From a virus, in IMG/VR virus record IMGVR_UViG_3300042484_002006: a DNA stretch of 64,000 bases; one strand, 5' to 3'. The translations under genes and the position numbers were made by a program. Shown here one piece after another: positions 1-59,390 of the stretch; position 1 is the first letter of the stretch; each line of letters opens with the position of its first letter. The notes under the pieces were generated by a model. The model made no database searches. It saw only the letters and a list, made by a program, of their open reading frames with translations, and was not told the origin of the DNA.

Positions 1-1
1 A

Positions 2-3609: not shown

Positions 3610-3610
3610 T

Positions 3611-10600: not shown

Positions 10601-10604
10601 TTAG

Positions 10605-11245: not shown

Positions 11246-14200
11246 TTGATACGCGATCCAGGACCAATACAAAACTTAGGGTATGGCGTAACATCTAGAG
11301 ACTTGCCCGCTACTGAGGGCGAATCTGATGGCGTAGCGCCAAACTCAGGTATGGTAAGCCGTGCCTTAAATGGGCACCCCATTACAAGGTTCTTGGCCTC
11401 AACTGCATCTGTCATGGTTGCCGCAGGAGTCGCATCTAAGTTAACTAAAAAGGGTGGACTAAAGCTAGGAAAATTCCTACAAAAATCTGCTGACTCAGGC
11501 AATGGGGTTTCAACAAGAGTAGTGCAAAGCGCTCTTCAAATTCGCCGTCAATTAGACGAGCTACAAGGCGTCAGCAGGTATGTCGACAGTGGCGAAGATT
11601 TATACAGTAAATTAGTTGCGTATGATAATTCTGGAAAATTAACTACAGGTTATCATGGAATGGTCAGTGAAAGAGCTGGGTATCAATATCTAACCAAAGA
11701 AGAAAAGAACCTCGCAGGATCTGGATTCCTGACTGAACCTACAGCAGTTTGGTCCTATAAAGACCAACTACAGCAAAGGTTAGTTAGAGCTGGACGCAGA
11801 ATGCCGTATGAATTGCCAGCAATGTACGGCGCAGAAAAAGCAATTGTTGATCCACTTTTCGGTAATCGTGAAGAAGGACAAAGAAAAATAAAATGGTATA
11901 ATCCAGCAGACGTAATTACTGATTTTACTAAATCGTCCTTGACAATGATGGCGACAATGATTGCTCCATTCGAAGCTCTTGGAGCTGCAGCAGGAGCTGG
12001 TAAAAGTTCATTAAATAATCTTCGTTATTCAATGAATGATATGCGAAATCTAACTCCATTTAATAAAAAAGTACGCAAAGGGTTTGTTGATATAACAGAA
12101 ACTTTAGCAGATGTTGGTCACGACTTCGCTACACTAACTAATAAGTTTTTAAGAACTTCAGCGCAGACTTCTGGCGGACTAAGCGTTGCCACAAAAGCTT
12201 ATACGGAAAATCAACAAGGATTTGTACAAAATCTTCACAGCTTAAGACATGGCGTTAAAGCAGCACGCGATCAACAAATTGCCCAAGGAGCATCTAAGGA
12301 AGCTATTAGAAAAGCTGGCTCAGGTGCTTTCCTTAAGGGATTTACGGATTCATCTGGAAATACTTCATCTGGAATTACAGAACTTCCTCCAGTTTTTAGG
12401 GGCCTAAGAAAGGCTTTTGTTGCCGGTAAAGATGAATACAAAATTCTCGGCAAGGGATATGATGCCCTAGAGAATTCAATTGCACACTCCAGAGTATTGA
12501 AGGCAATGGGAGGTACCCCCGAACATGCACAAACGCTACAAAACGCAATGCAAAGAATTCAATCGCAACACTCCAGTAGATTATCTAGTTTTGCCACTGG
12601 TGTTAGGGTCATGGGAGGCGGAGGTCCAGGAGACTCAGCGGTTACTAGATCTGCATTTGGTTATGGCCATCAACACGACGCATTTAAGGATCTATTAGAA
12701 AATCAATTAATTTCACGAGGCTTAGAAGGAAAACAAGCTAAGCAATTTACCGACTATCTCAAAGTATCATTGCCTAAGCAGAATATGCACAGCACCAATA
12801 TAATAACTATTGGTAAAACTAAGATATATGAAGATGGTGCGGACGCAGTAGATCTAAGCGATGACTTTTTTGCAAAAATAATTAAAAGATATCGTGGAAT
12901 TTCTGGTGGAAAAAGTTTTGATGATGTAATTAAACCTGATGCACTTAGAGCTTCAGTCGAAGACGCAAGAGATATCTTTGCATCAAAAGAATTTCAAAAA
13001 GGTTTAAATAATAAAATACAAAAGAATTGGAATAAATTCTATAGAGATGATTTAACCACCGTTGGTGGCGGAATGCTCAAGCCGATGAAGGCTTCCTACA
13101 ATGATTTTATTGGCCCACAAACAGCAGCTAAAACGGAATTCCTACAAAGAAAAACAGCTCAGACTCTAGGTATCAAATTAACAGACGATGCCGGAAGGCA
13201 AGTATCTAATGACGTTATTGCCGGAGGCTTAAGAAATCGTGGTTTTGACCCCAATGCGTTTACTGATCTAAGAGCATTTTTAATTAAGAATCGTCAAATG
13301 TCTTCTGGTGTTATTGGCGGAGGATACAACTTATTTGGAATGAAGTCCCTAACAATTGACGAGGCTCGTCAGTCTGGGCGCTTCACGCACATGAGGCCAG
13401 ATGAACAAAAAATAATTCATGACTTAGCTTCACGAATGGCCATTAATGATCCAGTTTCTAAATCAATTGGATTCAGTAAACTTGATGGAGTATATCAATC
13501 TAGATCAGGTCAAATATTAGATTTTACATCAGTTAAATCTACGTTCACTAAAACGGCAAACTTTTTTGCTTCAGAATTTAAAATTCCTATATTAGGTTTT
13601 AATCCAGCTGACTTATTTGGTTATAGATCATTCTCAGAAATGGCCAACAGATCCCCATTGCAGTATGTTTCTTCTAGAACCGTACAGCCATTTATGCCCG
13701 AAGGAGCTCAGAGCAAAGCAGACTTCCATATGTGGTTTAAGACCAAGGGCACTAAGGGTAAATTGATGTCTTTTAGGACGGACAATCTGTCTGACGCAGT
13801 CCATAGTACAGTGATGAATGGTACATATAGAGCACTTCCAACTAACACTACAGACTTACTCACTAGACACACGCGCTACGCATCAAATATGCAGGGCGAA
13901 ACAATTAATGAGATCAGAGATTCAAGTGGTTCAAAATTCCTAGATAGAATTCTTGGCGGAGAAAGAGCAATACGTTTCAAGAGAAAAATGAGTATTGACT
14001 CTGAACAGCCAAACTCTTTATTTAGTTTAGCTTCTAGATTTAAAGGTCGTTCAAGTGATGTAAATAATCATGGAGTTATGTCTCGATTATTATCTGGGGA
14101 AGATGTCAAATATAATTCTGGTGGCAAAGAAAAAATAATAAAATTATCCGTAGGACAGAATAAAGAAATTGGTGTAGTAGATAATTTTGGAAATATAGTA

Positions 14201-17200
14201 GATGATTTTGCAGAAGCAGATATTCTAAGAGGATATCAATCCTTAAGAAAAGAAGCTTTCCAATATGGGACTCCAACTAAACTTATCAAAGAATTAGAAA
14301 CTAGCAGGCCAGATTTATTTACATTTGGTGGAAAAAAAGTTAGTGAAGCAGTTACTGAAGTTCAAGCTGTGCAATTTGCCGAAGAACTTTTAGCAGCACA
14401 AAAGTTAACATCTCAACAATTAAGAGCTCAGGGTATAGATCCGACTTTCTTGAGTTCCTCTGCATCAAGAATTAAGTACTTAATGCAAGAAACTAATCTA
14501 AATGCAATATCTCAAATGGCTGAAAAGTCTCCAACTATTACAACTAGATTAGATCAATTAAAAAATGAAATATTTAGATACGTTTCACAAACCAACCAAA
14601 TGCAACTTGGAGGCGGAAGTTCTGCAGACATATTTATTGAGATGCAAACTGCTATTAATAAAATGGTTAAAAGTGGAGCAATTAGTTCCTCAGAAAGAGT
14701 TGAAGCTCAAGCTGCAGCTCTATCGAGCATGTTTAATATCAGCGCATTTAAAACTTTTCAACACTCAGCGTCAAATATCCAGAATGCTCGCGCGGGCGCA
14801 GCAGAAATGTTCGGTCTTTCAACTCAAAATCCTAGTCTAAAAAATGTCTTTGATCCTTTTTCAAAGGCTGAAGTAAACCAAATTAGTAGTGGTATTCGTA
14901 AAAAATTCGCACCAGCACTTTCGCTAAGGCAAAGAGCTTTTGGAACTTCAGGCTATAAGGTTGATGATTTAGCTGTTGACCCATTAGGTTCTGGACAAAG
15001 TATCACAGTAGTGCCAACTTTCGGAACGGTGTTTGGCAGAGATCCAATGGGAGCCATTAAGAGCGCAATTGGCTTGACAACTTATTCAGATCCACAGAGT
15101 TTTTCTATGGGCAGCGTTCCTATCTCGCAAGGTGTAGAAAGATTAAATAGATATTTTGGCACTTTGGGTGGTCAATTAAACGTATCAGATTTTAAAGGTC
15201 CATTAGATCTTTTTGCTAGAGGAATGGTTGGCAAGCGAGTATTACCATTATATGCAACCGGTGTGACAGCTTTGACTATAGATCGAACGTTGGGTGGAGC
15301 CGTTAACGGTAAGGATGATAACGGAGAAAGAATTTATTCTCCACTAGTCCTTGGCCAAGTGGCTAAAGGAGCAGTTGAACTACAATCATTATCTGCAGGT
15401 ATAGCTCCTGGTGGAATGAGCTATGAAGAAAAGAAAGAGCAGTTAACCGAAGGTGAAGTTCCAATCAGGCAGGGTAGATGGTGGCCACTTGGAAATACCC
15501 CATTTAAGGGCGGAAAAATTCAGTATTACAGACCTTCTTGGTATCGTAAACTCCAAGCAGGAGCAATGTTTACCAGTGACACCTATGGAAGTCCAGCTGA
15601 AAAATTCTTATACTATAACGACATTTCACCACTAAGACCTTTTGACCCATATAGATTTGAACGTAAACACTATGAGGATAGGCCATATCCCGTTACTGGT
15701 GAATATTTCTCTGGTCCATTTGGTCCGCTCGTGCCCCTTGCTAATATGACAGTCGGAAAGCTCTTAAAGCCCCAAGTTCGAATGCATGAAAACGAAACTG
15801 CACAAGGTTTAGCAAACTACGTTAGGGCTGGACAATCAGGTGCCTACGACGCTTCTGCCTATGGGCAAACTCCAAGTTATGTCAATGGATTGGGCTTCAC
15901 TAGAGAAATGGGCGGAGGAGGCTCTGGAGGGGCCATAGGAGGCCTTGGAATGATGGGTGGAGGTGCACCTACCCCTGGATCTATCGGAGGCGCAGCAGCA
16001 GTTTCTGGAATGAACTCAATGCTAGCCAGTAGAGCAGGTAGCACGGGCGCTGCAGGATCAATGGTTAGGTCTTCACTAAAAGATATAAACTCTCAATACA
16101 GCGATTTGTCCTATGGTCCGCCCAGGGTGCCTGGTGTAATGGCTCCCAGAATAGTTGGAGCTGGAGCTCCGTTGGAGCCCAGTACTAGTTCTTTCCAGGC
16201 AGGTGAGCTTGGATTTAGAATGCAAGAAATGGCAGGTATCTACGGGTTTGCTTTTGCTAATGCAAGAAAGACATTGGGATTTGGGCAAGCAGATTATCAG
16301 CCACAAAGAAGTGTTTTACAATCAGCATCAAAAGCCTATGGAACTACTAGAGCATTCTGGGATCTTAACTTAGGAGGCTTGGGAGACGCTCCGTTAGGAA
16401 ATAAAGAAGGCGTAGGTAACTTTGAATTTTCTGAAATTGTTAGACGATTCATTCCAAAAGAAAGAACTAATGTTGATTATTTAAATCCAATAGAAAATAC
16501 TATGGGAAAGAAATATCCATTCCTTCCTGGGTCTGAATATTTTACAGACTTCACTAGAGGGGATCCATTTACAAAGGTTCAAGAAGGTGAATTAAGACTA
16601 CCCGGAGTTGGTTACGAAAGATTTAATAGACTTAACCCAGATTCAACTGGTCGATATGGAGCGTTGGATCAACTTAAAATATTGGGTGATGTTGCGCCTT
16701 ACTCACAACAATATAAAATATTAGATAAAAAAATTGACAGCATGAATTTAGGTCCAGCCGAAAGAAACCAAGTAGCTGATATTAGATCTCAAGTTCAAAG
16801 TATGACAACTAAAAATGAATTCACAGATTACAAATATAAAGGATCTTCTGCCGAAGAAATGGGGCAACATCCATTGAAGTTTGGCGCAGGAAGAATGGGA
16901 GAATATCTAGCTCACTCTGACAACTTTGTTGTGAGCAAGACAATAGGCAAGAGGACTGCTACTGAAGATTGGGAAAGAAAACATGTCTACGGCGCCACTT
17001 TCCCAGAATGGCAAAGACCATTTGAAAGTTATATTCAGCCAATGATTAATAAAGCCACACAAAGAGATCCAATAACGGCAGCAGCCGGACTTGGTGTAGC
17101 TGGAGCACTATTTGGAAGAACAGCTAAAGCTAAATTGTTTGGAACAGCAATTGGCGTAGCGACTGGATTAACTGCATCTGCATATGGGCAAACTTCAGAA

Positions 17201-17887
17201 TTAGTAACCGGTGAAAGATTCGTGCCAGCAAAAAGAAAGAAAGAATTAGCACTCGAAGAGTACTCTGATATTTTAAGCTACGTAAAAAGCAAAAGATTAG
17301 AAACTATGGCTAAAGCTTCTGGCGATGGAAAAGCAGCGATGCAATATAATATGGCTGCAAAAAGAACAATGTATGGAGCTGATCTTTATGGGAAAGATAT
17401 CGATACATTATCTTTAGCTATCCCTAAAAGAAAAAGAGAACACTTCAAAGCAATGATTAATGCCCCAGAAGAAGAAAGAGGTAAAATACTTTCTACTGCG
17501 GGACGACTTGAAAGAAGAATCTACGAAGCTTCTTGGGGGATGGATGTTGAGAAGAGACCAGATTTAGGAGAATATTTTACTCGTCATGAACTTCCAGATT
17601 TATCATGGGAAGGTTGGCATCCTAATACCAATATGGATCAAGTAAAGATTAAAATGGGACAATCAATGGGTCTAGAAATGTCGCAGATGGGTTACTATCC
17701 TCAACAGATCCGTGAAGCAAATTTAGCTAATCCAAGCTTTCCTCAATTTGGGAATGGTGGAGATAGACAAGATACTTTATATAAATTGCGCGGACTAATG
17801 AATGGTTCTGGATTTTCTGGAAGTGTTACTCCAGTTATGAATCCTTTTGGCTCACAGGGTATTGACGTTTCGGCAGGAGTTAGATAA
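11246..17887 (+). CDS. Tape-measure-like giant protein 1 (2213 aa)
   Basis: AAGGAG RBS plus TTG start, directly after the chaperones. Helical Gly/Ala/Lys/Arg-rich composition with hydrophobic glycine-rich segments near the C-terminus. Confidence 0.65.
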   Translation: MIRDPGPIQNLGYGVTSRDLPATEGESDGVAPNSGMVSRALNGHPITRFLASTASVMVAAGVASKLTKKGGLKLGKFLQKSADSGNGVSTRVVQSALQIRRQLDELQGVSRYVDSGEDLYSKLVAYDNSGKLTTGYHGMVSERAGYQYLTKEEKNLAGSGFLTEPTAVWSYKDQLQQRLVRAGRRMPYELPAMYGAEKAIVDPLFGNREEGQRKIKWYNPADVITDFTKSSLTMMATMIAPFEALGAAAGAGKSSLNNLRYSMNDMRNLTPFNKKVRKGFVDITETLADVGHDFATLTNKFLRTSAQTSGGLSVATKAYTENQQGFVQNLHSLRHGVKAARDQQIAQGASKEAIRKAGSGAFLKGFTDSSGNTSSGITELPPVFRGLRKAFVAGKDEYKILGKGYDALENSIAHSRVLKAMGGTPEHAQTLQNAMQRIQSQHSSRLSSFATGVRVMGGGGPGDSAVTRSAFGYGHQHDAFKDLLENQLISRGLEGKQAKQFTDYLKVSLPKQNMHSTNIITIGKTKIYEDGADAVDLSDDFFAKIIKRYRGISGGKSFDDVIKPDALRASVEDARDIFASKEFQKGLNNKIQKNWNKFYRDDLTTVGGGMLKPMKASYNDFIGPQTAAKTEFLQRKTAQTLGIKLTDDAGRQVSNDVIAGGLRNRGFDPNAFTDLRAFLIKNRQMSSGVIGGGYNLFGMKSLTIDEARQSGRFTHMRPDEQKIIHDLASRMAINDPVSKSIGFSKLDGVYQSRSGQILDFTSVKSTFTKTANFFASEFKIPILGFNPADLFGYRSFSEMANRSPLQYVSSRTVQPFMPEGAQSKADFHMWFKTKGTKGKLMSFRTDNLSDAVHSTVMNGTYRALPTNTTDLLTRHTRYASNMQGETINEIRDSSGSKFLDRILGGERAIRFKRKMSIDSEQPNSLFSLASRFKGRSSDVNNHGVMSRLLSGEDVKYNSGGKEKIIKLSVGQNKEIGVVDNFGNIVDDFAEADILRGYQSLRKEAFQYGTPTKLIKELETSRPDLFTFGGKKVSEAVTEVQAVQFAEELLAAQKLTSQQLRAQGIDPTFLSSSASRIKYLMQETNLNAISQMAEKSPTITTRLDQLKNEIFRYVSQTNQMQLGGGSSADIFIEMQTAINKMVKSGAISSSERVEAQAAALSSMFNISAFKTFQHSASNIQNARAGAAEMFGLSTQNPSLKNVFDPFSKAEVNQISSGIRKKFAPALSLRQRAFGTSGYKVDDLAVDPLGSGQSITVVPTFGTVFGRDPMGAIKSAIGLTTYSDPQSFSMGSVPISQGVERLNRYFGTLGGQLNVSDFKGPLDLFARGMVGKRVLPLYATGVTALTIDRTLGGAVNGKDDNGERIYSPLVLGQVAKGAVELQSLSAGIAPGGMSYEEKKEQLTEGEVPIRQGRWWPLGNTPFKGGKIQYYRPSWYRKLQAGAMFTSDTYGSPAEKFLYYNDISPLRPFDPYRFERKHYEDRPYPVTGEYFSGPFGPLVPLANMTVGKLLKPQVRMHENETAQGLANYVRAGQSGAYDASAYGQTPSYVNGLGFTREMGGGGSGGAIGGLGMMGGGAPTPGSIGGAAAVSGMNSMLASRAGSTGAAGSMVRSSLKDINSQYSDLSYGPPRVPGVMAPRIVGAGAPLEPSTSSFQAGELGFRMQEMAGIYGFAFANARKTLGFGQADYQPQRSVLQSASKAYGTTRAFWDLNLGGLGDAPLGNKEGVGNFEFSEIVRRFIPKERTNVDYLNPIENTMGKKYPFLPGSEYFTDFTRGDPFTKVQEGELRLPGVGYERFNRLNPDSTGRYGALDQLKILGDVAPYSQQYKILDKKIDSMNLGPAERNQVADIRSQVQSMTTKNEFTDYKYKGSSAEEMGQHPLKFGAGRMGEYLAHSDNFVVSKTIGKRTATEDWERKHVYGATFPEWQRPFESYIQPMINKATQRDPITAAAGLGVAGALFGRTAKAKLFGTAIGVATGLTASAYGQTSELVTGERFVPAKRKKELALEEYSDILSYVKSKRLETMAKASGDGKAAMQYNMAAKRTMYGADLYGKDIDTLSLAIPKRKREHFKAMINAPEEERGKILSTAGRLERRIYEASWGMDVEKRPDLGEYFTRHELPDLSWEGWHPNTNMDQVKIKMGQSMGLEMSQMGYYPQQIREANLANPSFPQFGNGGDRQDTLYKLRGLMNGSGFSGSVTPVMNPFGSQGIDVSAGVR

Positions 17888-20800
17888 TGGTAAATATTAA
17901 TGAGATGTATAAAACACTGCCACAAAGAATGGCGGCTGCTAGATCAGCATTAATGAGAACTACCTATGGAATGGGTGGTGTTATAAAAATAGAGCCAGAT
18001 GGCGATGAAATTAAATATGTATTAACCGCTACTGGTGAAAGTTTTAAAAATGTTGATAGAGCATTTAATGCAGCTGCTTCACTTCATGTTACACAGGTTA
18101 ACCCACTCCTAAAACCAAAACTAGGAAATAAAGTTAGTGGTATGGCTGAGATCATGGAGGATATCAGAGGAAAAGCAAGCAATTTTAATGCTGGCCAAAT
18201 TCAAATGTTACAAAATGCAGGTATTGACGTAAATGCGATAAAAGATATGCAGGTTGACCTCCTAACCATGCACGCTGATAAGGGAGGCGTAAAAGGAGTA
18301 GCCAGCAGAATCCAAACACTAAGAGACCGTGGAACTTTGCATGGTATTACGATAATGGATGATGAAGGCGCACGAATGTTGAATATGCGTGTAGGCCAAA
18401 AAATGCTAACGAGCTACCAATCAAACTTACTCCTTTCAATTACTGGTCACGACATGTTAGATCCAGAATTATTCTCAGCCATTATGGGCAAGGGCACTTC
18501 TCCATCAGAATCTTTAATTAAACAATTAATGAAAGTTGGAAAAAGATTCAGATCATTAGCATCTGAAAGAGAAGTCTCTTTAGCAGGAAATGATCTAGCT
18601 AGTTTTATTGGTGGAAAGCTGAAAGCAGAGGACTTTCATAAATCAATGTTAGTAGTAGATCCTCAATATGAGCTACTGCAGAAGATGGCTCACGGGAGCG
18701 CCTATGACTTTGGCGGAGGAAAAAAGGGAGCAGAATTAGCCGCCTATTACAAAAATGCAGAAGCTGAAGATTTTATTGGCAGCATAATGGGGAAACTATC
18801 TACTAACGAACAAGACGAATTAAAAAATGTAATTAAATCAGGTAATTTTACTTATGGGGGACGAGGAAAATTTGCTAGCGATCAATTAATGACACATTTA
18901 AAAGATAATTTTATTACAGTTAATGGTGTAGTTGATCAAAATCGAGAAAAAATTGTTAAAGAAATGTTTGATAATATCGAATATGCGTATGATGGTTCTG
19001 ATTTAATAAATTCAAAAAATATAGATGGCTATATTAAAAATATGCAAAAAAGAGCAAGTAGGATAAGAAAGCAAATCGACGATTCGCAGAAAGGTATTAG
19101 GCCACTGACAGCAGAAAAAATGGAAGAACTTGCTATGGAACTAAAAGATGTAAGTAACATCGAAAGACAAGTTTCTCGTGCTAAGAATACAGGTGGGCTG
19201 GAACAATTTACTGGTAGAGGTCACAGCGAAAAATATGGAGATATTAAAACAGCTTTCCAGTCAGTAGAATTTGATCCTAAATTAAATAAGTACTCAATGA
19301 TTGTTAGCAAGATGGGATTCAAAGGCGAACTTGGTCTAGCTGGTGAAAGTAACATACTTAACTTAAGCGGAATGGGAGCAGGGCGCGATTTAGTCTACGC
19401 TGACCCAGTATCAACAGCTTTTCATCCAGAAATTTTTGCTGATCCAGATACGATTAAGGCAATGGAAAAAAGATCTCAGGCTATCCTTCAAGAATTTGAA
19501 GGAGCCATTAAGAGCGGAACGGTTCCTAAGCGAGTAAGAGCAATGTTGGAACAGGCAGCAGAACGTGACATAAGTCATCTGCCCTCGTATGCTCGTGGAT
19601 CAGCACAGAGAAATAGGGAATTTGCAAAAGCTATTACGGATATGATAAATAGAGGAATTAGCCCTAATCAAAATCCAACTATGATGAATATGATGCATAC
19701 GTTCTTTGCAACAGAGGCATTCCGAGAAAAAGGCAATTTTGTTCAAGCTGTTCTTCCTGATACTTATCGCTTTGCTATTGATAGTGAAGCAGTCCTCATG
19801 GGAACTAAAAAAGGAAAAATGCTACTCAACAAGGGTAGAGGTTACGAAAAGATATCTATGTCTGGCCTAAATGCCGCACAAGAAGCAGCATTAGCAAGTC
19901 AAGACATTCTAAAGTTCAGAGTAAGTGGACATAAGATGATGTTGTCAGCGGATGCTATTGGTCAGTTTAGGCACGCCCTTGGTGGATTTGACTTAGACGA
20001 CAAGGCACTACCTAAGCTTTTGACATATGAACAAAAAATAGCAGATGGTCAAGGTGGATTTAGAACAGTAAATAGATTAGGATTTAATATTTTCAGACAA
20101 CCATCTGGTCCTGAAGAATTAATTTTTGCTCGCATGAATATGGATCAAGAAACTATTAGAGGATTATTTGGTGGAGGAGATGATGTCTTTGCAGTAAAAC
20201 ATTTTAGGGACGCACTAGATCATCTGCAATCTACGACTACTCCCAAAGACGAATTGCATAAGACCTATTCTAATCTACAAAATATTTTAGATAAAAAACA
20301 TTTAAAATTAGATAAATCAGGCAATGTCATAAAAGATAAATACGGCAAAGCAATGGAAGCCGAATTATCTCCAAAATACTTTCAAGAATATGAACAAGCA
20401 ATTTATAATGTTTTTGAAAGATTAGAGGCTGATGGAGTGACCCAACTCCAAAGAATGTCACCAGAAATGGCTGCCAAAATCGCTCAGTATGGATCTTCTT
20501 CATTGAAAACATCTGAGTTAGCGTTTGAGCCTAGATATACTAGAGAAGGAGTATTTAAAGCATTTACTAAAGAAGGTGCTTTTGATATGAGTGAAGAATT
20601 ATTATCTACAATGCGAGCTAATAATGTTGACCAGGCGACAATTAATAAATTATCAAGAGCAAAAAACTTTGACGAAATGCTCAACCTAATGCAAGCAGAT
20701 TATAAAAGTAATCCAGCAGTACGAGCAGCATTTGCAAGCTCAATCGAAGAACTTGGCATAAAAAAGAGCATTGAAGGTGCAGATATTCTTGGTCTATATG

Positions 20801-22782
20801 TGAATAGATCAATGGCTGTGGGTTCTTCATTGAATCAATATGAAGCTTTTTTAAATGACGCAGGGACATCTTCTGCAGTTAAAAAATACATGTTAGAAAA
20901 CTATAAAATTGGTTTACTTTCGCAAGAAACAGCCATTGACCTTTCGGTCAACCTTGCGGGCACAAAACAATTAATGGGAAATGTTACGGAGCTGCTTGCT
21001 AACTTAACCGCATCAGACGCTAGCATGTATAATGAAAAAGGAATACAAAAAGCGCTAGGAGAGTTAGGGATTGCTGGCGCTGGACAAAAGGGCATGACAC
21101 TAGCTGGCTTTGGAGAACAAAGTATGGCTAATCTTGGAAAAATGATTGGATTTAATCGCGCCGTTGGTTCTGCCCAGGATGATCTCCAATTAGGTATTGA
21201 TGAATTCTTATTGCGTGAAAGAATTAAAGGTAGCGATACTAAAATTATTCTAGATAATATGATCCAAGGAATGCGAGATGCGCAAACTGCAGGACACGCA
21301 TCTCAAGTAGATTTAGATGAAACAATCAAGCAACTTCAAGCACTTTCTGCTAGCAATGATGAAGGTAAAATAAAGGAAGAATTAATAAAAAGAATTGGCC
21401 TAGGCGCAGACCACAAGTATGCCTCAATATCTAAAGTTCATGATGTGGGTGTCAGATATCAAGCTTACCTAGATAAAGTAAGAAGAGCCTCGATATCCCG
21501 AATGCCAGCAGATGACATATTATCCTCAACATCTACCTCCGCTGAAGCAGATTCTCTTGCCAGAAGAATTATTGCAACGCATAAAGATTCTCTAGAGCAA
21601 ATTTTTAGTGTTACAACTGATGAACTAAAATTAATGAGTGAGCCTGAAAAATTCAAGCACGCGGCTATGTTAGACAATGTTGGAGAAAATGTATTGCGCA
21701 CTATTGGTCAGGCATCGCAGTTAGAAAACATTAATGCGCTAGATCTTATCACCGCCATAGATAAACAAACGCTTGGCGCAGGTTCAAGAATAGATGTTGG
21801 AGGTCTAAGATATTTGAGCTCAGCTTTCGATGGCAATATGCCACAAGAGGTTTCGCAAGTAGCTGAAATGATTACAAGTGCTAGAGACTATAGAAGAATA
21901 AAATTCTATGAAAGCTTCGATCAAGACTACGCTAACCAGGTCCAAGCAAGCTTGGGTAATAAAAATACTATGAATGAAATTACAGAAGAAGCCCAAAGAA
22001 GACTAAAACTTGTTAGTGAAGCTCAGGAAAGAATAGATAATGGTACGAACAGCATGTTTGATATTTTCGAAGCAACCAACGAACAAAATGATGTACTAAG
22101 AGCCTTAGTGGGTGAGTCAGATCAGATTGCTGATGAAATGGTCAGGGAAAATTCTAATCACCAAGCAACCCTTATACAGCACCAAATGAGAAGAAGAGAA
22201 TTAGAAGATGCCGGACTCATAAGTCCAACTGGACAAGATGGCGTGCTAGAAAAGGGTGGGACTATAATAGACTCACAACAAGCACAGGCTGCTTTTGGTG
22301 ATGATTATAATTTAACGGATGACATTATTAGATCTGTTAATGACTTAGATAATGGATTAGTGGAGAATAAAGCTGTATATAAAAGAATAGGCGAAAAAAT
22401 GGGAGATCTTAAAGATCTTTTTAAAAACCCCACTATCAGGAAAAGTACCCTAGCATTAGGCGCTCTTATAATGGGAAGCTTCGCCTACACAGCGATTAGG
22501 GACAGGACTCATGAAGATATGACAGGACCTCCCCTATTGCCAGGTGGATCAGCCTATGAAAGCGGTTTTCCAAATCGAGTTCCCGAAATTGGCACTTTTG
22601 GTGGACCAGGTTATGATCCTGGCGTTAGCTATAAGGTAAATCTATATGGAGACCAAGACACCGTAAGAAGATTTAATGCTGCTGCCGGAGGGTTAGTTAA
22701 TGGCAATATTAACACTACTATGTATAATAGAATCCCCGATGTGGCTCAAGATCCATATACAAGAATGGCAGCCAATTATTAA
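17887..22782 (+). CDS. Tape-measure-like giant protein 2 (1631 aa) with putative two-barrel RNA-polymerase-like region and C-terminal transmembrane segment
   Basis: Overlaps the upstream stop by 1 nt. Motifs YDGSDLIN (368-375), R444/K454, SKMGFK (474-479), NPTMMNMM...VLPDTYRFAIDSE (596-634), LGGFDLDDK (698-706), FRQP (736-739). Hydrophobic stretch LALGALIMGSFAYTAI near 22450-22497. Confidence 0.5.
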   Translation: MVNINEMYKTLPQRMAAARSALMRTTYGMGGVIKIEPDGDEIKYVLTATGESFKNVDRAFNAAASLHVTQVNPLLKPKLGNKVSGMAEIMEDIRGKASNFNAGQIQMLQNAGIDVNAIKDMQVDLLTMHADKGGVKGVASRIQTLRDRGTLHGITIMDDEGARMLNMRVGQKMLTSYQSNLLLSITGHDMLDPELFSAIMGKGTSPSESLIKQLMKVGKRFRSLASEREVSLAGNDLASFIGGKLKAEDFHKSMLVVDPQYELLQKMAHGSAYDFGGGKKGAELAAYYKNAEAEDFIGSIMGKLSTNEQDELKNVIKSGNFTYGGRGKFASDQLMTHLKDNFITVNGVVDQNREKIVKEMFDNIEYAYDGSDLINSKNIDGYIKNMQKRASRIRKQIDDSQKGIRPLTAEKMEELAMELKDVSNIERQVSRAKNTGGLEQFTGRGHSEKYGDIKTAFQSVEFDPKLNKYSMIVSKMGFKGELGLAGESNILNLSGMGAGRDLVYADPVSTAFHPEIFADPDTIKAMEKRSQAILQEFEGAIKSGTVPKRVRAMLEQAAERDISHLPSYARGSAQRNREFAKAITDMINRGISPNQNPTMMNMMHTFFATEAFREKGNFVQAVLPDTYRFAIDSEAVLMGTKKGKMLLNKGRGYEKISMSGLNAAQEAALASQDILKFRVSGHKMMLSADAIGQFRHALGGFDLDDKALPKLLTYEQKIADGQGGFRTVNRLGFNIFRQPSGPEELIFARMNMDQETIRGLFGGGDDVFAVKHFRDALDHLQSTTTPKDELHKTYSNLQNILDKKHLKLDKSGNVIKDKYGKAMEAELSPKYFQEYEQAIYNVFERLEADGVTQLQRMSPEMAAKIAQYGSSSLKTSELAFEPRYTREGVFKAFTKEGAFDMSEELLSTMRANNVDQATINKLSRAKNFDEMLNLMQADYKSNPAVRAAFASSIEELGIKKSIEGADILGLYVNRSMAVGSSLNQYEAFLNDAGTSSAVKKYMLENYKIGLLSQETAIDLSVNLAGTKQLMGNVTELLANLTASDASMYNEKGIQKALGELGIAGAGQKGMTLAGFGEQSMANLGKMIGFNRAVGSAQDDLQLGIDEFLLRERIKGSDTKIILDNMIQGMRDAQTAGHASQVDLDETIKQLQALSASNDEGKIKEELIKRIGLGADHKYASISKVHDVGVRYQAYLDKVRRASISRMPADDILSSTSTSAEADSLARRIIATHKDSLEQIFSVTTDELKLMSEPEKFKHAAMLDNVGENVLRTIGQASQLENINALDLITAIDKQTLGAGSRIDVGGLRYLSSAFDGNMPQEVSQVAEMITSARDYRRIKFYESFDQDYANQVQASLGNKNTMNEITEEAQRRLKLVSEAQERIDNGTNSMFDIFEATNEQNDVLRALVGESDQIADEMVRENSNHQATLIQHQMRRRELEDAGLISPTGQDGVLEKGGTIIDSQQAQAAFGDDYNLTDDIIRSVNDLDNGLVENKAVYKRIGEKMGDLKDLFKNPTIRKSTLALGALIMGSFAYTAIRDRTHEDMTGPPLLPGGSAYESGFPNRVPEIGTFGGPGYDPGVSYKVNLYGDQDTVRRFNAAAGGLVNGNINTTMYNRIPDVAQDPYTRMAANY

Positions 22783-22794: not shown

Positions 22795-23238
22795 ATGATT
22801 TTTGGTGCAGGCGATCAGAACAAAAGGCTTAGTAGCGCAGCTGGTCGTCCCAAAGATACATCTCATAGGAAAGAAAATTCGAATACCTACTCAGCCAAGA
22901 TTTCTTCTAGTAAGTCTTCTGTGGCTAAAACCGTCGGTGAATCAAAAGTCACTGTTAGAAAATCTAATTCAGATAAGCTAAGAGGCTCATACGAAGGTTT
23001 GCAACACAGCTCTTCTACTGTCTTACAGATGAATGGTGTGGGATATGATAATAAGTCCCTGCAAAACGCGCGTTATAACAAAAATCAAATATCTCATAAT
23101 AATCATAGGTTTAACTTTAATATGTCACCTGTTGATAAAAATTATAGTATAATGGATAATTACAGTTCTATGTCTGCGACTGGATCATCTAGCAATAAAA
23201 TTAGCAATATAGTTAAAAATAATATGATGTTTAAATAG
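22795..23238 (+). CDS. Hypothetical basic, Ser/Asn/Lys-rich low-complexity protein (147 aa)
   Basis: ORF fills the gap between two giant genes and is in frame with the hub gene across a single TAG. Confidence 0.6.
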   Translation: MIFGAGDQNKRLSSAAGRPKDTSHRKENSNTYSAKISSSKSSVAKTVGESKVTVRKSNSDKLRGSYEGLQHSSSTVLQMNGVGYDNKSLQNARYNKNQISHNNHRFNFNMSPVDKNYSIMDNYSSMSATGSSSNKISNIVKNNMMFK

Positions 23239-23247
23239 GAAAATTAC

Positions 23248-26200
23248 ATGGCTATTAATAATACTTCTAAAGATTACATAAAAGGTATCGTAGAAAATGA
23301 TGATCTTTATTTTTGGCTATATGATTTTTTAAATCCGGATAATAAAACCAGCACTGCTGGAACAAAAGAACAGATAAGAGAATTTTTTCTATACGGAACA
23401 ATTGACGGAGATGATGTAAACGGCTTTAGTATCGCTGCCGGTGGCAATATTATCGCACTACAAGAAAGTGATCCTTATTCTGTCGCCGTCTTTAACTATT
23501 GTATATCTATGGCAGTGGTTGGAGCTGAAGTTTCAAATGTGGCAATTGTTCCAAAAGAATATGAGGCAGTAGCTCAAGCTACGGCAGCAATATTTCAGGG
23601 ATTTGAATTAAGTTCTTTCCCAGCTTGGATCCCACAAAGCACACAAGAACAATCAGCTGCAGAGAAGAACGCAAAGCTGCTCAGGGAACATTTTGATTAT
23701 AACAACATAATGTTTTATGAAGATAGATCATTTTTTACATATCAAAAGTATGCCTTCCAAAGACTAAACACTTGGTATGAATTTTCTGCAGGAGATAATG
23801 ATTTATCTGAGGAAGAATATTTAGAACTAGAAAAATATGAATCTACTTATTCATCAGAGTTAGAAGTAATTAACTCAGGCGAAGATGTAACTAGTGCATT
23901 TAATAATGAAGCTTTTATTTCTTTTATAGCAAAAGCTTATAATAACGTAAATGAAACAGATGAAAAATATATCTTTGATCCCTTACTCAGGGCAGCTTAT
24001 GGAAATAGAGATATTAAAAATAGTAGTAATTTTTTCAATATCTTTCGGGGAACTAATTCACAAGTTGGCAATCTTCAAGCCCACGAAGCATCAACATTAT
24101 TTAATAAAATGGAAGAAATTGGATTATTTAATCTAGCATCCTATGCCTATGAAATTTCTAACTTCGCAAAGAAAAGATTGAGAACTAAAGATACATTGCA
24201 AGCCTCCGCAGATAATGTAGTTGATGCTACTGTCGATCTACCCTGGTTAATTTCATTGGGTGAAGTTATACAAAGGTTAAAGCGCGATCCTCTAACTTTT
24301 GCAGGAATAAATTATTATTTTCCAAGCCTATCAGTCTTTCTAGTTGATGCTCTAGCTGTTGTTGGCGATTACTCTGATAATGGCAAGGGTGGAGGAGAAG
24401 AAGATACTCTTAACAACGCAGATGACTTTGCACTATCTTTAGAAAAAGCTTTTGGAGTTACTTCCGTACTTGTAGCTCCCGGCATTGAAGAGCGTCGATT
24501 TGGAATTGGTTTTGTCGAAAGTGCAAGAGCCATTTTTCAGATGGCTTACAAGTTTACTAATACAGCGCAACGTATTGAAAATGTATTAAAGACATCACCA
24601 TTTAGAGCTAATATAGCTCCAAATACTCCGGATAATTTTCATCTAAGATTAGGTGCAGCAAACTTCTACATCCCCCCTGTATCAATAGATGTAAATTCTA
24701 GTTTTAAAACTGGAAGTCTTACTGGCGCGGCAATTAGACAAAAAAATAGTCCTAAGTTTAATTCTGGATATAAAGAAACCAGTATTAGAATGAGATTATT
24801 CTTTCCAAATTATGAAGAAATTTGGGGACTGTCAGTAGATGCGCTATCAAAGATAGATTTAAATGATACATTCAAAATTGATTTTAAAAATGGCGGAGAT
24901 AGTGAAATAAAGATAGATAAATTCTTATCTTCATTGAGAGGACTAGTTGCCGCGTTTAAGTATTCTCCGATTCTTCCAATTAAGAATCAATATTTAAATT
25001 CTGTTCATGGAATAACAGCAGTAGCTCTTTCTAATATGAGTATCTCAACTATTCCGAACTACCCTTTTGCATTAGCTGTTGATATTGAATTATTAAATTT
25101 TAATCATGAACCATTTCTCCCAATGATTAAAGATTTCAATCAAGCAATACATTGGGGCAAATATCGTCATTATATGGGTAAGGCAGCAGGACATCTTCAT
25201 GACTATGTTAATGAAGAGTTTTTATTAAAGCAGTCTGACGTAAAAGAAACCGATGTAACTCCTATGACTATTACTGGAAAAGCTGTAACTGATTCTGATA
25301 CTGACACAGATCCAGAAACACCCGCAGTTCCACCGAATGTATTTGATAATGATGTATTAAATATCAACGTAATTTCTGAATGGAAGAATGGAAACAATAT
25401 CTCTCTCTTCGCCCCAGCTGAAACTCAAACAAAGATATATTTGCCCGATACAGCTTCATTCAGAACTAAACAAGAAAAAATGTTTACTGATCTAGGACAA
25501 AGTACTTGGCAAGGACTACTTTCTAAGTTTGGCATAGATGTTAATCAATCAGATTCATATGGAGTATCTTTACAAGAAGTTCAGGATATATCGCTTTCAA
25601 GTACTTATTCTAAATCAATAGCAAATACAATAAAAGACTCCATAGATATATTGACAGCTGGCATTACATCAGATGATAAAGCTGAACAAATATATGCATT
25701 CTTTGTCACCTCGTTTATTGCAGAAAATAAAAAGATTAATAAGATTCAAGGAGATTGGTTAAAGAGTAATTTTAATACTTCAGCAATGGATTATCCTGAG
25801 CAAGATACATATGTTTTCCAAGGAAAATTTATAAATAACGTATCCCTTAATGGCATGAAAGATACTTTTACTGATATCTCAAGAAAACCAGCATCTTACC
25901 TAGACTTAATAAAGAGCGGAATAACTCAAGAAAAGATTAACAAACTTGGAATTCCAGATCCTGAGGTAACAGATGAGATGAGAAATTCTATTGAACAAAA
26001 TGTTCAAAATGAATTAGCTCAAGCATTTAGCGTATCTTTATATGAAAGATTCTTTAAGAGTGGACCTATTCAATCTTTAATGGAAGCAGCCAGAGCAAAA
26101 GGCAATTACAATGTAGATGAAGAGGGAAATGTAATTAGAGAAAGCGGTTACTCTTTTAAGGAATGGGAAGTTCCTATGATACGAGTTGATTTGGATCCTC

Positions 26201-29200
26201 AATCCGTAATCGTTAATGGAGTGACAGTGTCCATGGGCAACAGCCTAGCTAAACTACAAATACAAATGCAGGGTGAGCCAACCTATCAACACATTGGGGG
26301 CAGGGACAGCAGTATCAATATATCTATGACTGTAATTGGCGAAAAAGAACTAATTAAATTAAAAAATGTTTTTGATCATATATCCAATTTAGCAAGGTTA
26401 GAACATGCCACCGGAGTAATCGGCTTCCTAGGTATTAAGAACATTATTACGGCGCTGTGTGGAATTAAATATGTTTTACCACTTAGCTATAATGTTAGCA
26501 CAATACCAAATTATCCTCACGCATACAATGTCCAATTAAGTTTAATAGACTTTGACATATTTCAGCAAAAACGAGAAGAGCTTAGTAGCACTCAGCAAAA
26601 AGAATTAATAGAACAATTTAGTACAAAGAAAAATCCATTTTTAAGAATTAAACAATTCTGGGGAACCTTCAACGCCTACCCAGATTTTCCTTTAAGTCTA
26701 AAAAATTCCGAAGGAGATGTTGTAGGGCATTTGGATCCAGATTATTATTTCAGAAGTTTTGAAATGTTTGATAAAGATGTAATTAATAGTTTTAGTACAC
26801 AGCATCCAAAAATTCAAGATTACAACTTCGATACTCATTCCGATGGTTCTGGTGGATGGGGCGGTGAAGGTTCTGATGTGTTAGGCATAACTGCAAAAAT
26901 ATTAGAATTTATTCAATTATATAATAATACAGAAGATAACATAGCTTCTTCAAATATTGTCGAACAGATGAAAGATTATATAATTGCAGAACAAATTGGA
27001 TTGTCTAGATTTATTCATCTATTAAGAAATGTTATTACCGGTGATACAGAATTTAGTAGTTCCGCAAATGTTCAGTTGTTAACTGATTTTATCACATTGA
27101 CCGAAGAAACTAGTGAAACAAATCCATTCTTTGATGCAGTTACTCCAGCTCGTTTTCAGCAGGGTGACTTATCCCCCAATGATGCAGCAAACGCTAGCTC
27201 TATTGAAGCAGCTTTGACCGGAGCCTTCAGTCTATCAAATGAAGAATTTGTAAGTTTTGATCCAGATGAAGTTGATTTTCACAAACAGATTTTTACAGTA
27301 CCCGCATCAGATCCAGATGACATTTTAAATAATAAAATTCCATCTATATTACAAACAGCAGGAGGCACTCATTTTGGATACATTAGTAGAGACAATGGTA
27401 GATTTTACTTAACCGCTAACGGCACTAATATCAAAAAGGTCGTCGACGAAAGTGGTAATAGTAGTTCAGGAATTGTAAAATTTAGATCAAATTTCTTAAG
27501 AGACGTACAGACTCCAGAAAATGGAAATACTACTGTTAACACAGGGGTTCCTGGGGCAAAAGCAGTTTCAGAATATCAGAACGCCTACTCAGGAGATGTA
27601 CAATCACACTGGGAAACTATGATGGTCGACGCCTCTTACAGGGACATATCAGGGCGTATGATACGTGCGTTCCCAACATACATGCTATGGTTGATAGATG
27701 AAGGTGGCATGTTTGCGGGCGTTAAACTATTCGACAATTTCTATGGACTACAATCTATTATTGATTTCTCTGTAGTCAGCTCAGAAGATTTATTAGGTGA
27801 TACTTTAATTTTCAGAGTTTCCAATCTTTATAGTAAATTAACAAAAAATGAATCTAGTAAAATATTTAACCCTAATAATAAAGATGGAAACAATGATCCA
27901 CTTTCTTTGACTGATGGATTAACTTCTATTATTGAAAGAACTTTAAATATGTCAAGAAATATTCTTGGGCATATGAGAAATGAATATGTTGTTGACATAG
28001 CAAATATACGCTTGAAGCCAGGGGTAAGGGTCCATCTAAGAGCTGGTTATGGGTCAAATCCCAATTCACTTCAAACTCTTTTCAACGGAATTATCACTAA
28101 TGTTGAACAAGGTGAAATAGTTACAATTACAGCACAGTCCGATGCAATTGAATTGGGCGCAGTAATTAATTCAACAAATAAAAAAGGCGATAGTGGAAAA
28201 ATCGATGGCGGTGTTGATACTGGCATGTATATGTCAGAGCCTAGAGACTTGATGGTAAGATTACTTTCCATGGGCGCATCCAGAACAAGGGAGGCTATAG
28301 CTCATGCTACAAGAGGAACGGTATTCTCTGAAAATAGATTTGGCATTAGACACTTTGGCAATATTCTATATGAACCATTAACTACGGGGGAACGAGCAAA
28401 GAACGACGCCATTCGAGATAGCATTACTGGAGCATTCAGTATTGCCGGAAGCAATAATAGTTTCATGAATAGGGCAGTTGGAATTACCGAGGGTTTTAGC
28501 ATGAATTATAGAGGTAATTCATTTTCGGCAGTAAGCCAACTATTTGCTAATTTCTGCGCTCAAGTAGATCTTGAAATATTTAAAAGAAATATCTATCCTG
28601 GAAATGGAACCGGAATTGCTCAGTTCCTTGGTGGAGACCTAGATGACGGATGGTCTACAGCAGCATCTTTAACTAAAGAGGATAGTTACAACGAAAGAAT
28701 GGAAGGCTATCTTGGTAGATTAACGGATAGAACTTGGAATGATTTAATCTCTAATTCAGAATTAGAAAATGATGGCCTATTAGACACTGGCGCAAATGGC
28801 ACATTAGATTTCTTAACTCAAGATAATCAATTGGTAAATTCAGATGGAAGAGCTGGATTAGTAAAAGGCTTATTTGCTGGCGGTATAACTGCAGGAGCTT
28901 TTGCACTAGGAGGACCAGCTACTGCATCCATAGCTGGAGCAGGATTGCTTGGAATACTACGTGGCAGAGGTGGCACTAATCTATTCAGAACTATGGGAAT
29001 CATATCTCCTAATTCCGATGATGATTTACCTGGTTTTGATGAAGTCTCATTTAGAGCTCAAACTTACATGAGAACTGTCTGGGATTTATTTCAAATGTGC
29101 GCAAAATTACTGCCTAACTATATCGTAGCGGTTAGACCATTCGAAGATAGATCAACAGTATTCTATGGTAAACCACATTGGCTCTATACATCTGGTGTAG

Positions 29201-58716: not shown

Positions 58717-58727
58717 TGTACTATAAA
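58717..58727 (+). promoter_or_regulatory. Putative promoter TGTACTATAAA (TACTATAA motif)
   Basis: Intergenic, about 30 nt upstream of the 58757 gene. Same core as the motif at 6167. Confidence 0.45.
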
Positions 58728-59389: not shown

Positions 59390-59390
59390 A

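What the first reader, a model, noticed from the sequence alone, without database searches (positions are those of the whole stretch)
18988..20130. Putative single-subunit two-barrel RNA polymerase embedded in a tape-measure-like virion protein, with rearranged catalytic motifs
Seen in sequence: the 1631-aa protein carries, in order, YDGSDLINS (D369-G370), QFTGR...DIKTAF (R444, K454), MIVSKMGFK (S474, K479), NPTMMNMMH...QAVLPDTYRFAIDSE (596-634), KMMLS...LGGFDLDDKALP (D702, D704, D705; nt 19981-20004) and FNIFRQPSGPEELIF (R737-P739). Established knowledge: cellular RdRP/YonO-type two-barrel polymerases show DG..IS, Q.R..KG, S..K, EPF..ML...I.VP....G..DE and SG.DLDGD in this same order. Virion-delivered RNAPs exist, including Thermus phage P23-45 gp96 (fused to the tape measure) and crAss-like phi14:2 gp66. 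Inference: this phage may eject an RNAP with its tape-measure proteins to transcribe early genes. Two departures from the norm make it either novel or degenerate: the metal motif is DxDD rather than DxDxD, and the RxP strand comes after the acidic loop rather than before it. A C-terminal TM helix could anchor it in the host membrane.
Basis: partly seen in the sequence, partly recalled or inferred. Interest (0 to 1): 0.9.

Follow-up and report, generated by a model that had tools for sequence, protein, structure and literature searches.

The report
Hidden RNA polymerase in phage tail
A 1631-residue protein in the tail-gene block of an uncultured giant phage most likely contains a very divergent RNA polymerase of the cellular "two-barrel" type, probably carried in the virus particle to start transcription on infection; this has been shown before for only two other phage groups.

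Summary
Ten of the eleven named residues are invariant or at least 90% conserved across 75 homologues, some as low as 21-27% identical. GGFDLDDK is 100% invariant.

Every QDE-1 catalytic residue has a colinear conserved counterpart. The metal loop, however, is DxDD rather than DxDxD.

The gene lies in a cassette that is fully syntenic in 80 of 80 related contigs: tail chaperones, a 2213-aa giant, this gene, a 147-aa gene, then the hub. Five complete related genomes show no other recognisable RNAP or sigma factor.

Sequence-profile links to known RNAPs are not significant. The claimed reversal of motif order is not established. Activity and virion packaging are untested.

Verdict: a new, divergent family of probable virion-delivered two-barrel RNAP. 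First-stage readers of this scan noted the same idea on one other genome.

The parts
17887..22782 (+). Gene for the 1631-aa protein (P0001). Its ATG overlaps the TAA stop of the upstream giant gene by one base (TAATG), with GGAG 8 nt upstream.
17887..18906 (+). N-terminal alpha/beta domain (residues 1-340). It is part of the same compact model and lies within the stretch aligned to the N-terminal (slab side) part of QDE-1.
   Evidence: model 1..1200 aligned to QDE-1 451..1183
18964..19446 (+). First barrel (DPBB-B/DPBB1-like, residues ~360-520). It carries D369-G370 (nt 18991-18996), Q440/R444/K454 (nt 19204-19248) and K479 (nt 19321-19323). A ~60-residue helical hairpin (residues 376-434) is inserted in it.
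   Evidence: QDE-1 D709, Q736, R738, K743, K767 from PMC9508822
19720..20136 (+). Second, catalytic barrel (DPBB-A/DPBB2-like, residues ~612-750). It carries invariant R678 (nt 19918-19920), the helix at 688-698, the acidic loop, and a long beta-hairpin at 706-736.
19981..20004 (+). Putative metal-binding loop G699-G-F-D702-L-D704-D705-K706. It is 100% invariant and reads DxDD instead of DxDxD.
   Evidence: Small-model residues 28..386/387 align to RDR2 545..848 and QDE-1 700..1026, so the loop falls next to QDE-1 D1007/D1009/D1011.
20095..20118 (+). Invariant RQPSGPEE motif (R737, P739, E744) after the beta-hairpin. Its role is unknown.
20785..20853 (+). Candidate bridge helix (residues 967-989; LGxYVNRSMxVGSxLNQ, with G969 and N973 invariant).
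   Evidence: This is motif-level resemblance only to IGEITNMS of the gp99 family.
20908..21096 (+). Candidate trigger-loop region (residues 1008-1070), with IGLLxQExAID (I1017 and D1018 at least 90% conserved), followed by the only low-confidence segments of the model (1042-1047, 1063-1068).
   Evidence: QDE-1 trigger-loop D1116
22441..22497 (+). Single hydrophobic helix (residues ~1519-1537).
22519..22779 (+). Highly conserved Gly/Pro-rich C-terminal domain (GPPLLPGGSAYE...).
10052..11228 (+). Two tail-assembly chaperone genes, homologues of 0305phi8-36 gp143 and gp144.
11246..17887 (+). 2213-aa giant virion protein. Its C-terminal third is homologous to 0305phi8-36 gp145, a virion protein by mass spectrometry. 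It is the likely true tape measure or an inner tail protein.
22795..23238 (+). Conserved 147-aa gene of unknown function, found directly downstream in every one of the 71 related loci that extend across it (71 of 80 loci in all).
23248..34440 (+). 3730-aa baseplate-hub giant, homologue of 0305phi8-36 gp147.

Best explanation
Residues ~1-1200 of this protein form a highly divergent single-subunit two-barrel (double-psi beta-barrel) nucleotide polymerase of the QDE-1/RdRP/YonO/crAss-gp66 clade, most likely a DNA-dependent RNA polymerase.

Proposed catalytic residues:
- The first barrel supplies D369, Q440, R444, K454 and K479, which would bind product and NTP phosphates.
- The second barrel supplies R678 and an invariant GGFDLDDK loop. 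Its three Asp residues (D702, D704, D705) would bind the catalytic Mg2+.
- A long conserved helix (967-989) and a QExAID element (D1018) would act as bridge helix and trigger loop.

Proposed role: the gene is made with the late tail genes, between the tape-measure-like giant and the hub, and ends in a membrane helix plus a conserved C-terminal domain. The protein is therefore probably built into the virion (tail lumen or tail-proximal cargo) and ejected ahead of or with the DNA. It would then transcribe the first phage genes independently of host RNAP, as shown for P23-45 gp96 and phi14:2 gp66.

Shown here: motif conservation, fold similarity and synteny. Inferred: catalytic activity, DNA template, virion packaging and timing.
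For: (1) Conservation. The proposed catalytic residues are invariant or at least 90% conserved across a family reaching 21-27% identity.

(2) Confident models. Residues 330-800 give pLDDT 88.6 and pTM 0.83. Residues 1-1200 give pLDDT 87.1 and pTM 0.86.

(3) Fold, small model.
- Foldseek against PDB: the top four are QDE-1 chains (best E 0.025) and maize RDR2 follows at ranks 7-8.
- ESM Atlas: the top cluster is PF05183 RdRP (TM 0.40, 239 aa).
- BFVD: rank 4 is a phage protein annotated as 'RNA-dependent RNA polymerase' (probability 0.94).

(4) Fold, large model.
- Foldseek rank 1 is the phi14:2 gp66 virion RNAP and rank 2 is QDE-1.
- QDE-1 aligns over 544 aa, P74-26 gp62 over 383, P23-45-type gp64 over 398 and gp66 over 520. 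Every other row aligns fewer than 110 aa.

(5) Colinearity with QDE-1 catalytic residues from PMC9508822: D709/Q736/R738/K743/K767/R962/G1005/D1007/D1009/D1011/D1116 correspond to D369/Q440/R444/K454/K479/R678/G700/D702/D704/D705/D1018. The K-to-K spacing is 24 versus 25 residues. The N-to-D spacing in the bridge/trigger region is 46 in the gp99 family versus 45 here.

(6) Context.
- The cassette of chaperones, giant, this gene, 147-aa gene and hub is conserved in 80 of 80 loci and is syntenic with the 0305phi8-36 tail module.
- Five complete related genomes have no hit to PF00623, PF00562, PF00940, PF05183 or PF04542, and no paralogue of this gene.
- The gene start is coupled to the upstream gene's stop.
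- 94 of 95 homologues have no Cys, and they have 0-4 Trp in about 1600 residues. This fits a protein that must unfold to be ejected, which is an inference.
Against: - No sequence method links the family to any RNAP. Pfam (PF05183 included), PHROGs and PDB sequence or profile searches find nothing.
- hhalign against the 0305phi8-36 gp99 (PF05183) family is not significant.
- The universal DxDxD triad is not met: it reads DxDD.
- The Pro of the R-x-P gate is absent at the canonical position.
- There are about 200 extra residues between the catalytic barrel and the putative bridge helix.
- Residue correspondences come from colinearity and aligned ranges, not from a residue-level superposition.
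- There is no isolate, proteomics, transcriptomics or biochemistry. A 1200-residue compact domain is hard to fit inside a tail tube.
Confidence: 0.6

Rival explanations
1. It has a two-barrel polymerase fold, but the enzyme is not a transcribing DNA-dependent RNAP. It could be a primase-like or RNA-dependent polymerase, a DNA polymerase (PolD is also two-barrel), or another Mg-dependent nucleotidyl transferase ejected with the DNA, for example for priming or end protection.
For: The closest solved folds are RNA-dependent enzymes (RDR2, QDE-1). The metal loop is non-canonical and the Pro-gate proline is missing, which could mean altered chemistry or sugar selectivity. No promoter set attributable to this enzyme was found.
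Against: Phage members of this clade that have been tested (YonO, gp66, gp96, gp64) are DNA-dependent RNAPs (PMC10770324; bioRxiv 2020.03.07.982082 abstract). The invariant Arg at the position that reads the 2'-OH in QDE-1 (R962 to R678) is kept.
Confidence: 0.15
2. It is a catalytically dead relic: a former RNAP recruited as a structural inner-tail or ejection protein, with conservation reflecting folding and assembly contacts.
For: DxDD breaks a motif otherwise universal in the superfamily (PMC10770324 and PMC7824862). The gene sits where 0305phi8-36 has a structural 'tape measure' gene. It has a C-terminal membrane helix and a conserved C-terminal domain, as tail-internal proteins do.
Against: Pseudo-enzymes normally lose catalytic residues. 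Here all three Asp, the fourth Asp of barrel 1, both Lys, the Arg residues and the trigger-loop Asp are invariant or nearly so over a deep family, while most of the 1200 positions vary.
Confidence: 0.12
3. It is an active RNAP but is not packaged. It would be a non-virion polymerase that merely happens to be encoded in the tail operon, for example for late transcription.
For: No proteomic evidence exists for this family. 0305phi8-36 keeps its PF05183 RNAP (gp99) outside the structural module, and gp99 carries no virion mass-spectrometry note.
Against: The position between tape-measure-like giant and hub is invariant in 80 of 80 loci, with a translationally coupled start. The membrane helix, the conserved C-terminal domain and the absence of Cys/Trp have no obvious use in a cytoplasmic enzyme. 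A polymerase expressed only with late genes cannot start the programme that makes it.
Confidence: 0.08
4. It is not a two-barrel protein at all. The fold matches would then be chance similarity of a large alpha/beta model, and the motifs would belong to an unknown enzyme or to assembly interfaces.
For: All Z, E and TM values are below the tools' own comfort thresholds (notes). Profile-profile comparison is not significant.
Against: Six independent searches (two model sizes, three libraries, prefiltered and unbiased) all return the same superfamily as the only long match. This includes five structurally distinct families: RDR2, QDE-1, the gp64/gp62 type, gp66 and a BFVD 'RdRP'. Eleven catalytic positions are colinear.
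Confidence: 0.05

Closest known systems
Thermus phage P23-45 gp96 (tail-tape-measure-fused virion RNAP; PMC10770324) and its paralogue gp64 (PDB 8f72; P74-26 gp62, 8f5m)
   Different: gp96 is 5002 aa with canonical DFDGD, a metallopeptidase domain and a real tape region, in a siphovirus. Here the protein is 1631 aa with DxDD, no peptidase and no detectable tape-measure similarity. It is in a contractile-tailed jumbo phage and stands next to a separate tape-measure-like giant. No sequence similarity was detected. gp96 itself did not appear in the fold lists.
crAss-like phage phi14:2 gp66 virion RNAP (PDB 6vr4)
   Same: Virion-packaged single-subunit two-barrel RNAP encoded among giant structural genes. 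It is Foldseek rank 1 for the 1-1200 model (E 0.026) and aligns over 520 residues in VIA-align.
Eukaryotic RNAi polymerases QDE-1 and RDR2 (Pfam PF05183), and the phage YonO-like relatives such as 0305phi8-36 gp99
   Different: No PF05183 HMM hit, and hhalign is not significant. There is a one-residue deletion in the metal loop, no Pro in the gate, a 60-aa hairpin inserted in barrel 1 and about 200 extra residues before the bridge helix. gp99 is a stand-alone gene beside the terminal repeat, outside the structural gene block, and has no virion mass-spectrometry note.
Bacillus phage 0305phi8-36 gp146, 'hypothetical tape measure protein'
   Same: Same position in a syntenic tail module, between the gp145 homologue and the gp147 hub homologue.
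   Different: No detectable homology (hhalign probability 0.1%). gp146 is 2537 aa.

Membership tests
Two-barrel (double-psi beta-barrel) RNA polymerase superfamily, single-subunit QDE-1/RdRP/YonO/crAss clade | Two DPBB domains forming one active-site cleft, detectable as fold similarity to solved members | tested here: met
Two-barrel (double-psi beta-barrel) RNA polymerase superfamily, single-subunit QDE-1/RdRP/YonO/crAss clade | DxDxD Mg-binding triad in the catalytic barrel | tested here: not met
   The loop is GGFD-L-D-D-K (DxDD) in 75 of 75 sequences. Three acidic residues are present, but the third is shifted by one position relative to GGxDxDGDK of the gp99 family.
Two-barrel (double-psi beta-barrel) RNA polymerase superfamily, single-subunit QDE-1/RdRP/YonO/crAss clade | Basic residues (two Lys, or Q/R/K) and a fourth Asp contributed by the other barrel | tested here: met
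   D369, Q440, R444, K454 and K479 are at least 90% conserved and colinear with QDE-1 D709, Q736, R738, K743 and K767. The correspondence rests on order, spacing and aligned ranges, not on residue-level superposition.
Two-barrel (double-psi beta-barrel) RNA polymerase superfamily, single-subunit QDE-1/RdRP/YonO/crAss clade | R-x-P 'Pro-gate' loop upstream of the acidic loop | tested here: inconclusive
   Invariant R678 is at the canonical place but has no Pro (FRVSGH). An invariant R737-Q-P739 lies downstream, after a beta-hairpin. Which of the two is at the active site is unknown.
Two-barrel (double-psi beta-barrel) RNA polymerase superfamily, single-subunit QDE-1/RdRP/YonO/crAss clade | Bridge helix and trigger loop after the catalytic barrel | tested here: inconclusive
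   A long conserved helix at 967-989, QExAID (D1018) and flexible segments at 1042-1068 are present. The whole-model alignment to QDE-1 runs to residue 1183. hhalign of this region gives E 0.032 and probability 1.6%.
Pfam PF05183 (RdRP) | Match to the family HMM above the gathering score | tested here: not met
   No Pfam hit other than a sub-threshold K-box match. The positive control, 0305phi8-36 gp99, scores 1.2e-18.
Virion-packaged phage RNAP (N4 vRNAP, crAss gp66, P23-45 gp96 as functional class) | Encoded in the late or structural gene block | tested here: met
   The gene lies between tail chaperones plus giant and the baseplate hub in 80 of 80 loci.
Virion-packaged phage RNAP (N4 vRNAP, crAss gp66, P23-45 gp96 as functional class) | Protein present in virions; rifampicin-resistant early transcription; polymerase activity | not testable with these tools
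   No cultured phage carries the gene.
Tail tape measure protein | Similarity to TMP families, or a long helical rod after the chaperone genes | tested here: not met
   No TMP family in Pfam or PHROGs and no similarity to 0305phi8-36 gp146. Residues 1-1200 model as a compact multi-domain body (pTM 0.86). The gene directly after the chaperones is the 2213-aa neighbour. Protein-language-model hits to TMP clusters score 0.79-0.85, below the tool's lead threshold.

The most novel reading that the evidence does not exclude
A whole clade of contractile-tailed jumbo phages (at least 247 protein clusters, all uncultured) may carry, as a fixed component of the tail module, their only RNA polymerase. 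It would be a two-barrel enzyme working with a compressed DxDD metal site and no Pro-gate proline. It contains no Cys and almost no Trp, so it could be threaded through the tail. It would be tethered by a C-terminal membrane helix and transcribe incoming DNA at the entry pore. This would be the first tail-delivered RNAP in a myovirus and the first natural exception to the DxDxD rule in the superfamily.
Probability: 0.4. Interest if true: 0.85.

Novelty: new variant of a known kind. Interest (0 to 1): 0.72.

Why it matters
Virion-delivered two-barrel RNAPs are documented in only two phage groups: Crassvirales and the P23-45-like Thermus phages. A third lineage, independent at the sequence level and found in jumbo myoviruses, would suggest that ejecting a cellular-type RNAP is a recurrent strategy.

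It would add a very divergent branch for reconstructing the history of two-barrel polymerases. It would also offer a natural test of how strictly the DxDxD geometry and the Pro-gate are needed. In practice, it would give a function to a conserved giant 'hypothetical protein' found in hundreds of environmental phage genomes.

Tried and rejected
- Sequence searches of the whole protein and of the family profile found nothing useful: Pfam, PHROGs, PDB by phmmer, and PDB by profile.
- tblastn of three family members against 50,697 phage records found no match, so no isolate is known.
- hhalign of the family against 0305phi8-36 gp145, gp146 and gp99, and against a 22-sequence gp99-family alignment, was not significant. 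This held for whole proteins and for trimmed cores (best E 0.032 at probability 1.6%). The low-stringency alignments did pair GGFDLD-DK with GGADTDGDK and QExAID with QGWSID.
- My first local MAFFT run timed out.
- The language-model atlas search gave only sub-threshold tape-measure-like neighbours.
- The profile search of 1.84 billion proteins returned only the family itself among the 150 rows listed. The 97 weakest hits, where a bridge to known RNAPs might lie, are not shown.
The genome is not held, and a pattern scan of IMG/VR gave only scattered single hits.
- In a complete relative (G002), upstream regions are enriched only for TTACTATA, a late-type motif. A 20-kb repeat scan showed tRNAs and minor repeats. 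No promoter set can be assigned to this enzyme.
- Split versions of the gene in G001, G003 and G005 were considered as natural domain boundaries. In G001 the neighbouring giant genes are fragmented too, so assembly frameshifts cannot be excluded.
- P23-45 gp96 itself and multisubunit beta/beta' chains did not appear among the listed fold matches. That is not evidence against a relationship.
Full report
**What is there.** The window is the structural half of a phage genome distantly related to the jumbo Bacillus myovirus 0305phi8-36.
- It encodes two sheath paralogues, two tube paralogues, two tail chaperones, three giant ORFs of 2213, 1631 and 3730 aa, a P2 gpJ-like baseplate wedge protein, further large virion proteins, and then a class II ribonucleotide reductase and ThyX.
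- No whole genome is held for it.
- The finding concerns the 1631-aa ORF at 17887-22782. Its ATG overlaps the stop of the 2213-aa gene (TAATG), with GGAG 8 nt upstream.

**Check of the observation.**
The span 18988-20130 equals residues 368-748, and GGFDLDDK is encoded at nt 19981-20004.
- The protein has no hit in Pfam, PHROGs, PDB sequences or 50,697 phage records.
- It does have 94 metagenomic homologues of about 1600 aa, down to 26% identity. It has at least 107 relatives in IMG/VR and 247 clusters at 50% identity among 1.84 billion representative proteins.
- In a 75-sequence alignment only 15 of the first 1200 positions are invariant: D506, G590, R678, L698, G699, G700, D702, D704, D705, K706, R737, P739, E744, G969 and N973.
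- D369, G370, Q440, R444, K454, K479 and D1018 are at least 90% conserved.
S474 does not.

**Fold.**
- AlphaFold2 with the family alignment gave confident models for residues 330-800 (pLDDT 88.6, pTM 0.83) and residues 1-1200 (pLDDT 87.1, pTM 0.86). The first 1200 residues form one compact multi-domain body.
- Small model, Foldseek against PDB: QDE-1 chains take ranks 1-4 (best E 0.025) and maize RDR2 ranks 7-8.
- ESM Atlas: the top cluster carries PF05183 RdRP (TM 0.40, 239 residues).
- BFVD: three uncharacterised phage proteins (E 5e-9 to 3e-7), then a phage protein annotated as 'RNA-dependent RNA polymerase' (probability 0.94).
- Large model, Foldseek: rank 1 is the virion RNAP gp66 of crAss-like phage phi14:2 (6vr4; E 0.026) and rank 2 is QDE-1.
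- Large model, VIA-align: 383-544 residues align to maize RDR2, QDE-1 from two fungi, P74-26 gp62, a P23-45-type gp64 and phi14:2 gp66. Every other row is a hairpin match under 110 residues.
- Each score alone is 'middling' by the tools' own notes. The weight lies in specificity: six searches in three libraries, with and without a prefilter, return the same superfamily and nothing else of comparable length.

**Active-site logic.** The QDE-1 complex structures (PMC9508822) define these catalytic residues: D709 of barrel 1 (cation B); Q736, R738, K743 and K767 (product and NTP phosphates); the R962-x-P964 Pro-gate; G1005; D1007, D1009 and D1011 (cations A and B); and D1116 of the trigger loop.
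- The family here has, in the same order, D369, Q440, R444, K454, K479, R678, G700, D702, D704, D705 and D1018.
- The aligned ranges put residue 357 opposite QDE-1 residue 700, and residues 715-716 opposite QDE-1 1026.
- The 0305phi8-36 gp99 family is a bona fide PF05183 phage RNAP. It shows the same string of motifs: DGQG; QIRFGFxKG; SMWK; FRSPLIH; GGADTDGDK; IGEITNMS; QGWSIDFAKTG.
- The counterparts here are FDG; QxTGRG..IKxAF; KGE; FRVSGH; GGFDLDDK; LGxYVNRS; QExAID. The N-to-D spacing is 46 versus 45 residues.
- These correspondences are inference from colinearity and ranges. I had no coordinates, so clustering in 3D is not shown.

**Departures from the norm.**
- The metal loop is DxDD in all 75 sequences, a one-residue deletion relative to GGxDxDGDK. 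I found no paper describing such a variant in a two-barrel polymerase.
- The canonical Pro-gate position keeps the Arg (R678) but has no Pro.
- An invariant RQPSGPEE follows a long beta-hairpin after the acidic loop.
- The secondary-structure order is strand 674-680, strand 683-686, helix 688-698, acidic loop, strand 706-719. This is the canonical order with R678 in place, so a rearrangement is not required and remains unproven.
- Barrel 1 carries a 60-residue helical hairpin. About 200 residues separate the catalytic barrel from the putative bridge helix.

**Sequence-level links fail.** There is no PF05183 hit, and hhalign against the gp99 family is not significant in any trimming.

**Context.**
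- In all 80 IMG/VR loci the order is tail chaperone, tail chaperone, 2213-aa giant, this gene, 147-aa gene, hub giant, wherever the flanks reach.
- The module is syntenic with 0305phi8-36 gp143 to gp147. The 2213-aa protein matches gp145 and the 3730-aa protein matches gp147, the hub.
- This gene occupies the slot of gp146, the 'hypothetical tape measure' of that phage, but shows no similarity to it.
- 0305phi8-36 instead has its two-barrel RNAP (gp99) as a separate gene next to the right terminal repeat, with no virion mass-spectrometry note (PMC7824862).
- Five complete relatives of the present clade (CheckV completeness 97-100%) have no hit to PF00623, PF00562, PF00940, PF05183 or PF04542, and no paralogue of this gene. 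The PF00940 search also found nothing in any control genome, so that one negative carries little weight.
- The C-terminus has one hydrophobic helix (~1519-1537) and a very conserved Gly/Pro-rich domain.
- 94 of 95 homologues have no Cys, and they have 0-4 Trp in about 1600 residues, whereas the adjacent hub has 8 Cys and 37 Trp.

**Interpretation.**
- The best reading (about 0.6) is a divergent but active two-barrel RNAP that is assembled into the virion with the tail and ejected to transcribe the first genes. This parallels P23-45 gp96 (PMC10770324) and phi14:2 gp66.
- Late co-expression with tail genes, fixed synteny, the membrane helix and the unusual composition all point to packaging. None of them proves it.
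- The alternatives are a two-barrel enzyme with different chemistry, a dead structural relic, an unpackaged RNAP, or a chance fold match. They are ranked in the rival list.
- The invariance of the full catalytic set argues most strongly against the relic reading. The consistency of the fold hits argues most strongly against chance.

**Novelty.**
- The literature held here describes tail- or virion-delivered two-barrel RNAPs only for Crassvirales and P23-45-like phages.
- A 2021 jumbo-phage survey lists only phiKZ-type multisubunit and YonO-like enzymes. A 2026 jumbo-phage review mentions neither YonO nor 0305phi8-36 and notes single-subunit RNAPs only for small phages.
- I found no description of this family.
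- First-stage readers of this scan made the same suggestion for this stretch and for a homologue in one other genome. Those are unchecked notes, not independent evidence.

Noticed in passing
17887-22782 and homologues P0002-P0094: No cysteine in 94 of 95 family members, and 0-4 tryptophans in about 1600 residues. The upstream 2213-aa giant and the 147-aa protein also lack Cys, while the hub has 8 Cys and 37 Trp. This may be a signature of proteins that must unfold and pass through the tail channel.
   Followed up: partly
10052-34440; loci L002-L081: The six-gene cassette (two chaperones, 2213-aa giant, RNAP-like gene, 147-aa gene, hub giant) is strictly colinear in all 80 related IMG/VR loci, across 25-73% identity of the core.
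   Followed up: yes
22795-23238: A conserved 147-aa ORF sits between the RNAP-like gene and the hub, in every one of the 71 related loci that extend across it (71 of 80 in all). It has no Pfam or PHROG family. It could be a partner or chaperone of either neighbour.
   Followed up: no
G001, G003, G005 (IMG/VR records behind L026, L069, L070): The homologue is read as 2-4 adjacent ORFs, with breaks near profile positions 176/180, 653 and 763/785 and an overlap at 1146-1159. In G001 the neighbouring giants are also fragmented, so assembly frameshifts are as likely as real gene splitting.
   Followed up: partly
G002 (L202-L212), upstream regions genome-wide; compare first-reader note on TACTAT at 58717-64000 of this window: The 8-mer TTACTATA (ATTACTAT) occurs in 9-10 of 99 upstream regions of a complete relative, about 17-19 times more than expected. 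This suggests a clade-wide late-type promoter element, probably unrelated to the RNAP-like protein.
   Followed up: partly
L084:38027-41683 (Bacillus phage 0305phi8-36 ORF099): The nearest cultured relative keeps a stand-alone PF05183 two-barrel RNAP next to its terminal repeat and a non-homologous 2537-aa protein in the tail slot. The present clade has the opposite arrangement: no PF05183 gene and an RNAP-like protein in the tail slot.
   Followed up: partly
3587-5206 and 6218-7489; 7515-8192 and 8269-9003: Duplicated sheath-like and tube-like genes, as in 0305phi8-36 (gp137/gp139 and gp140/gp141).
   Followed up: partly
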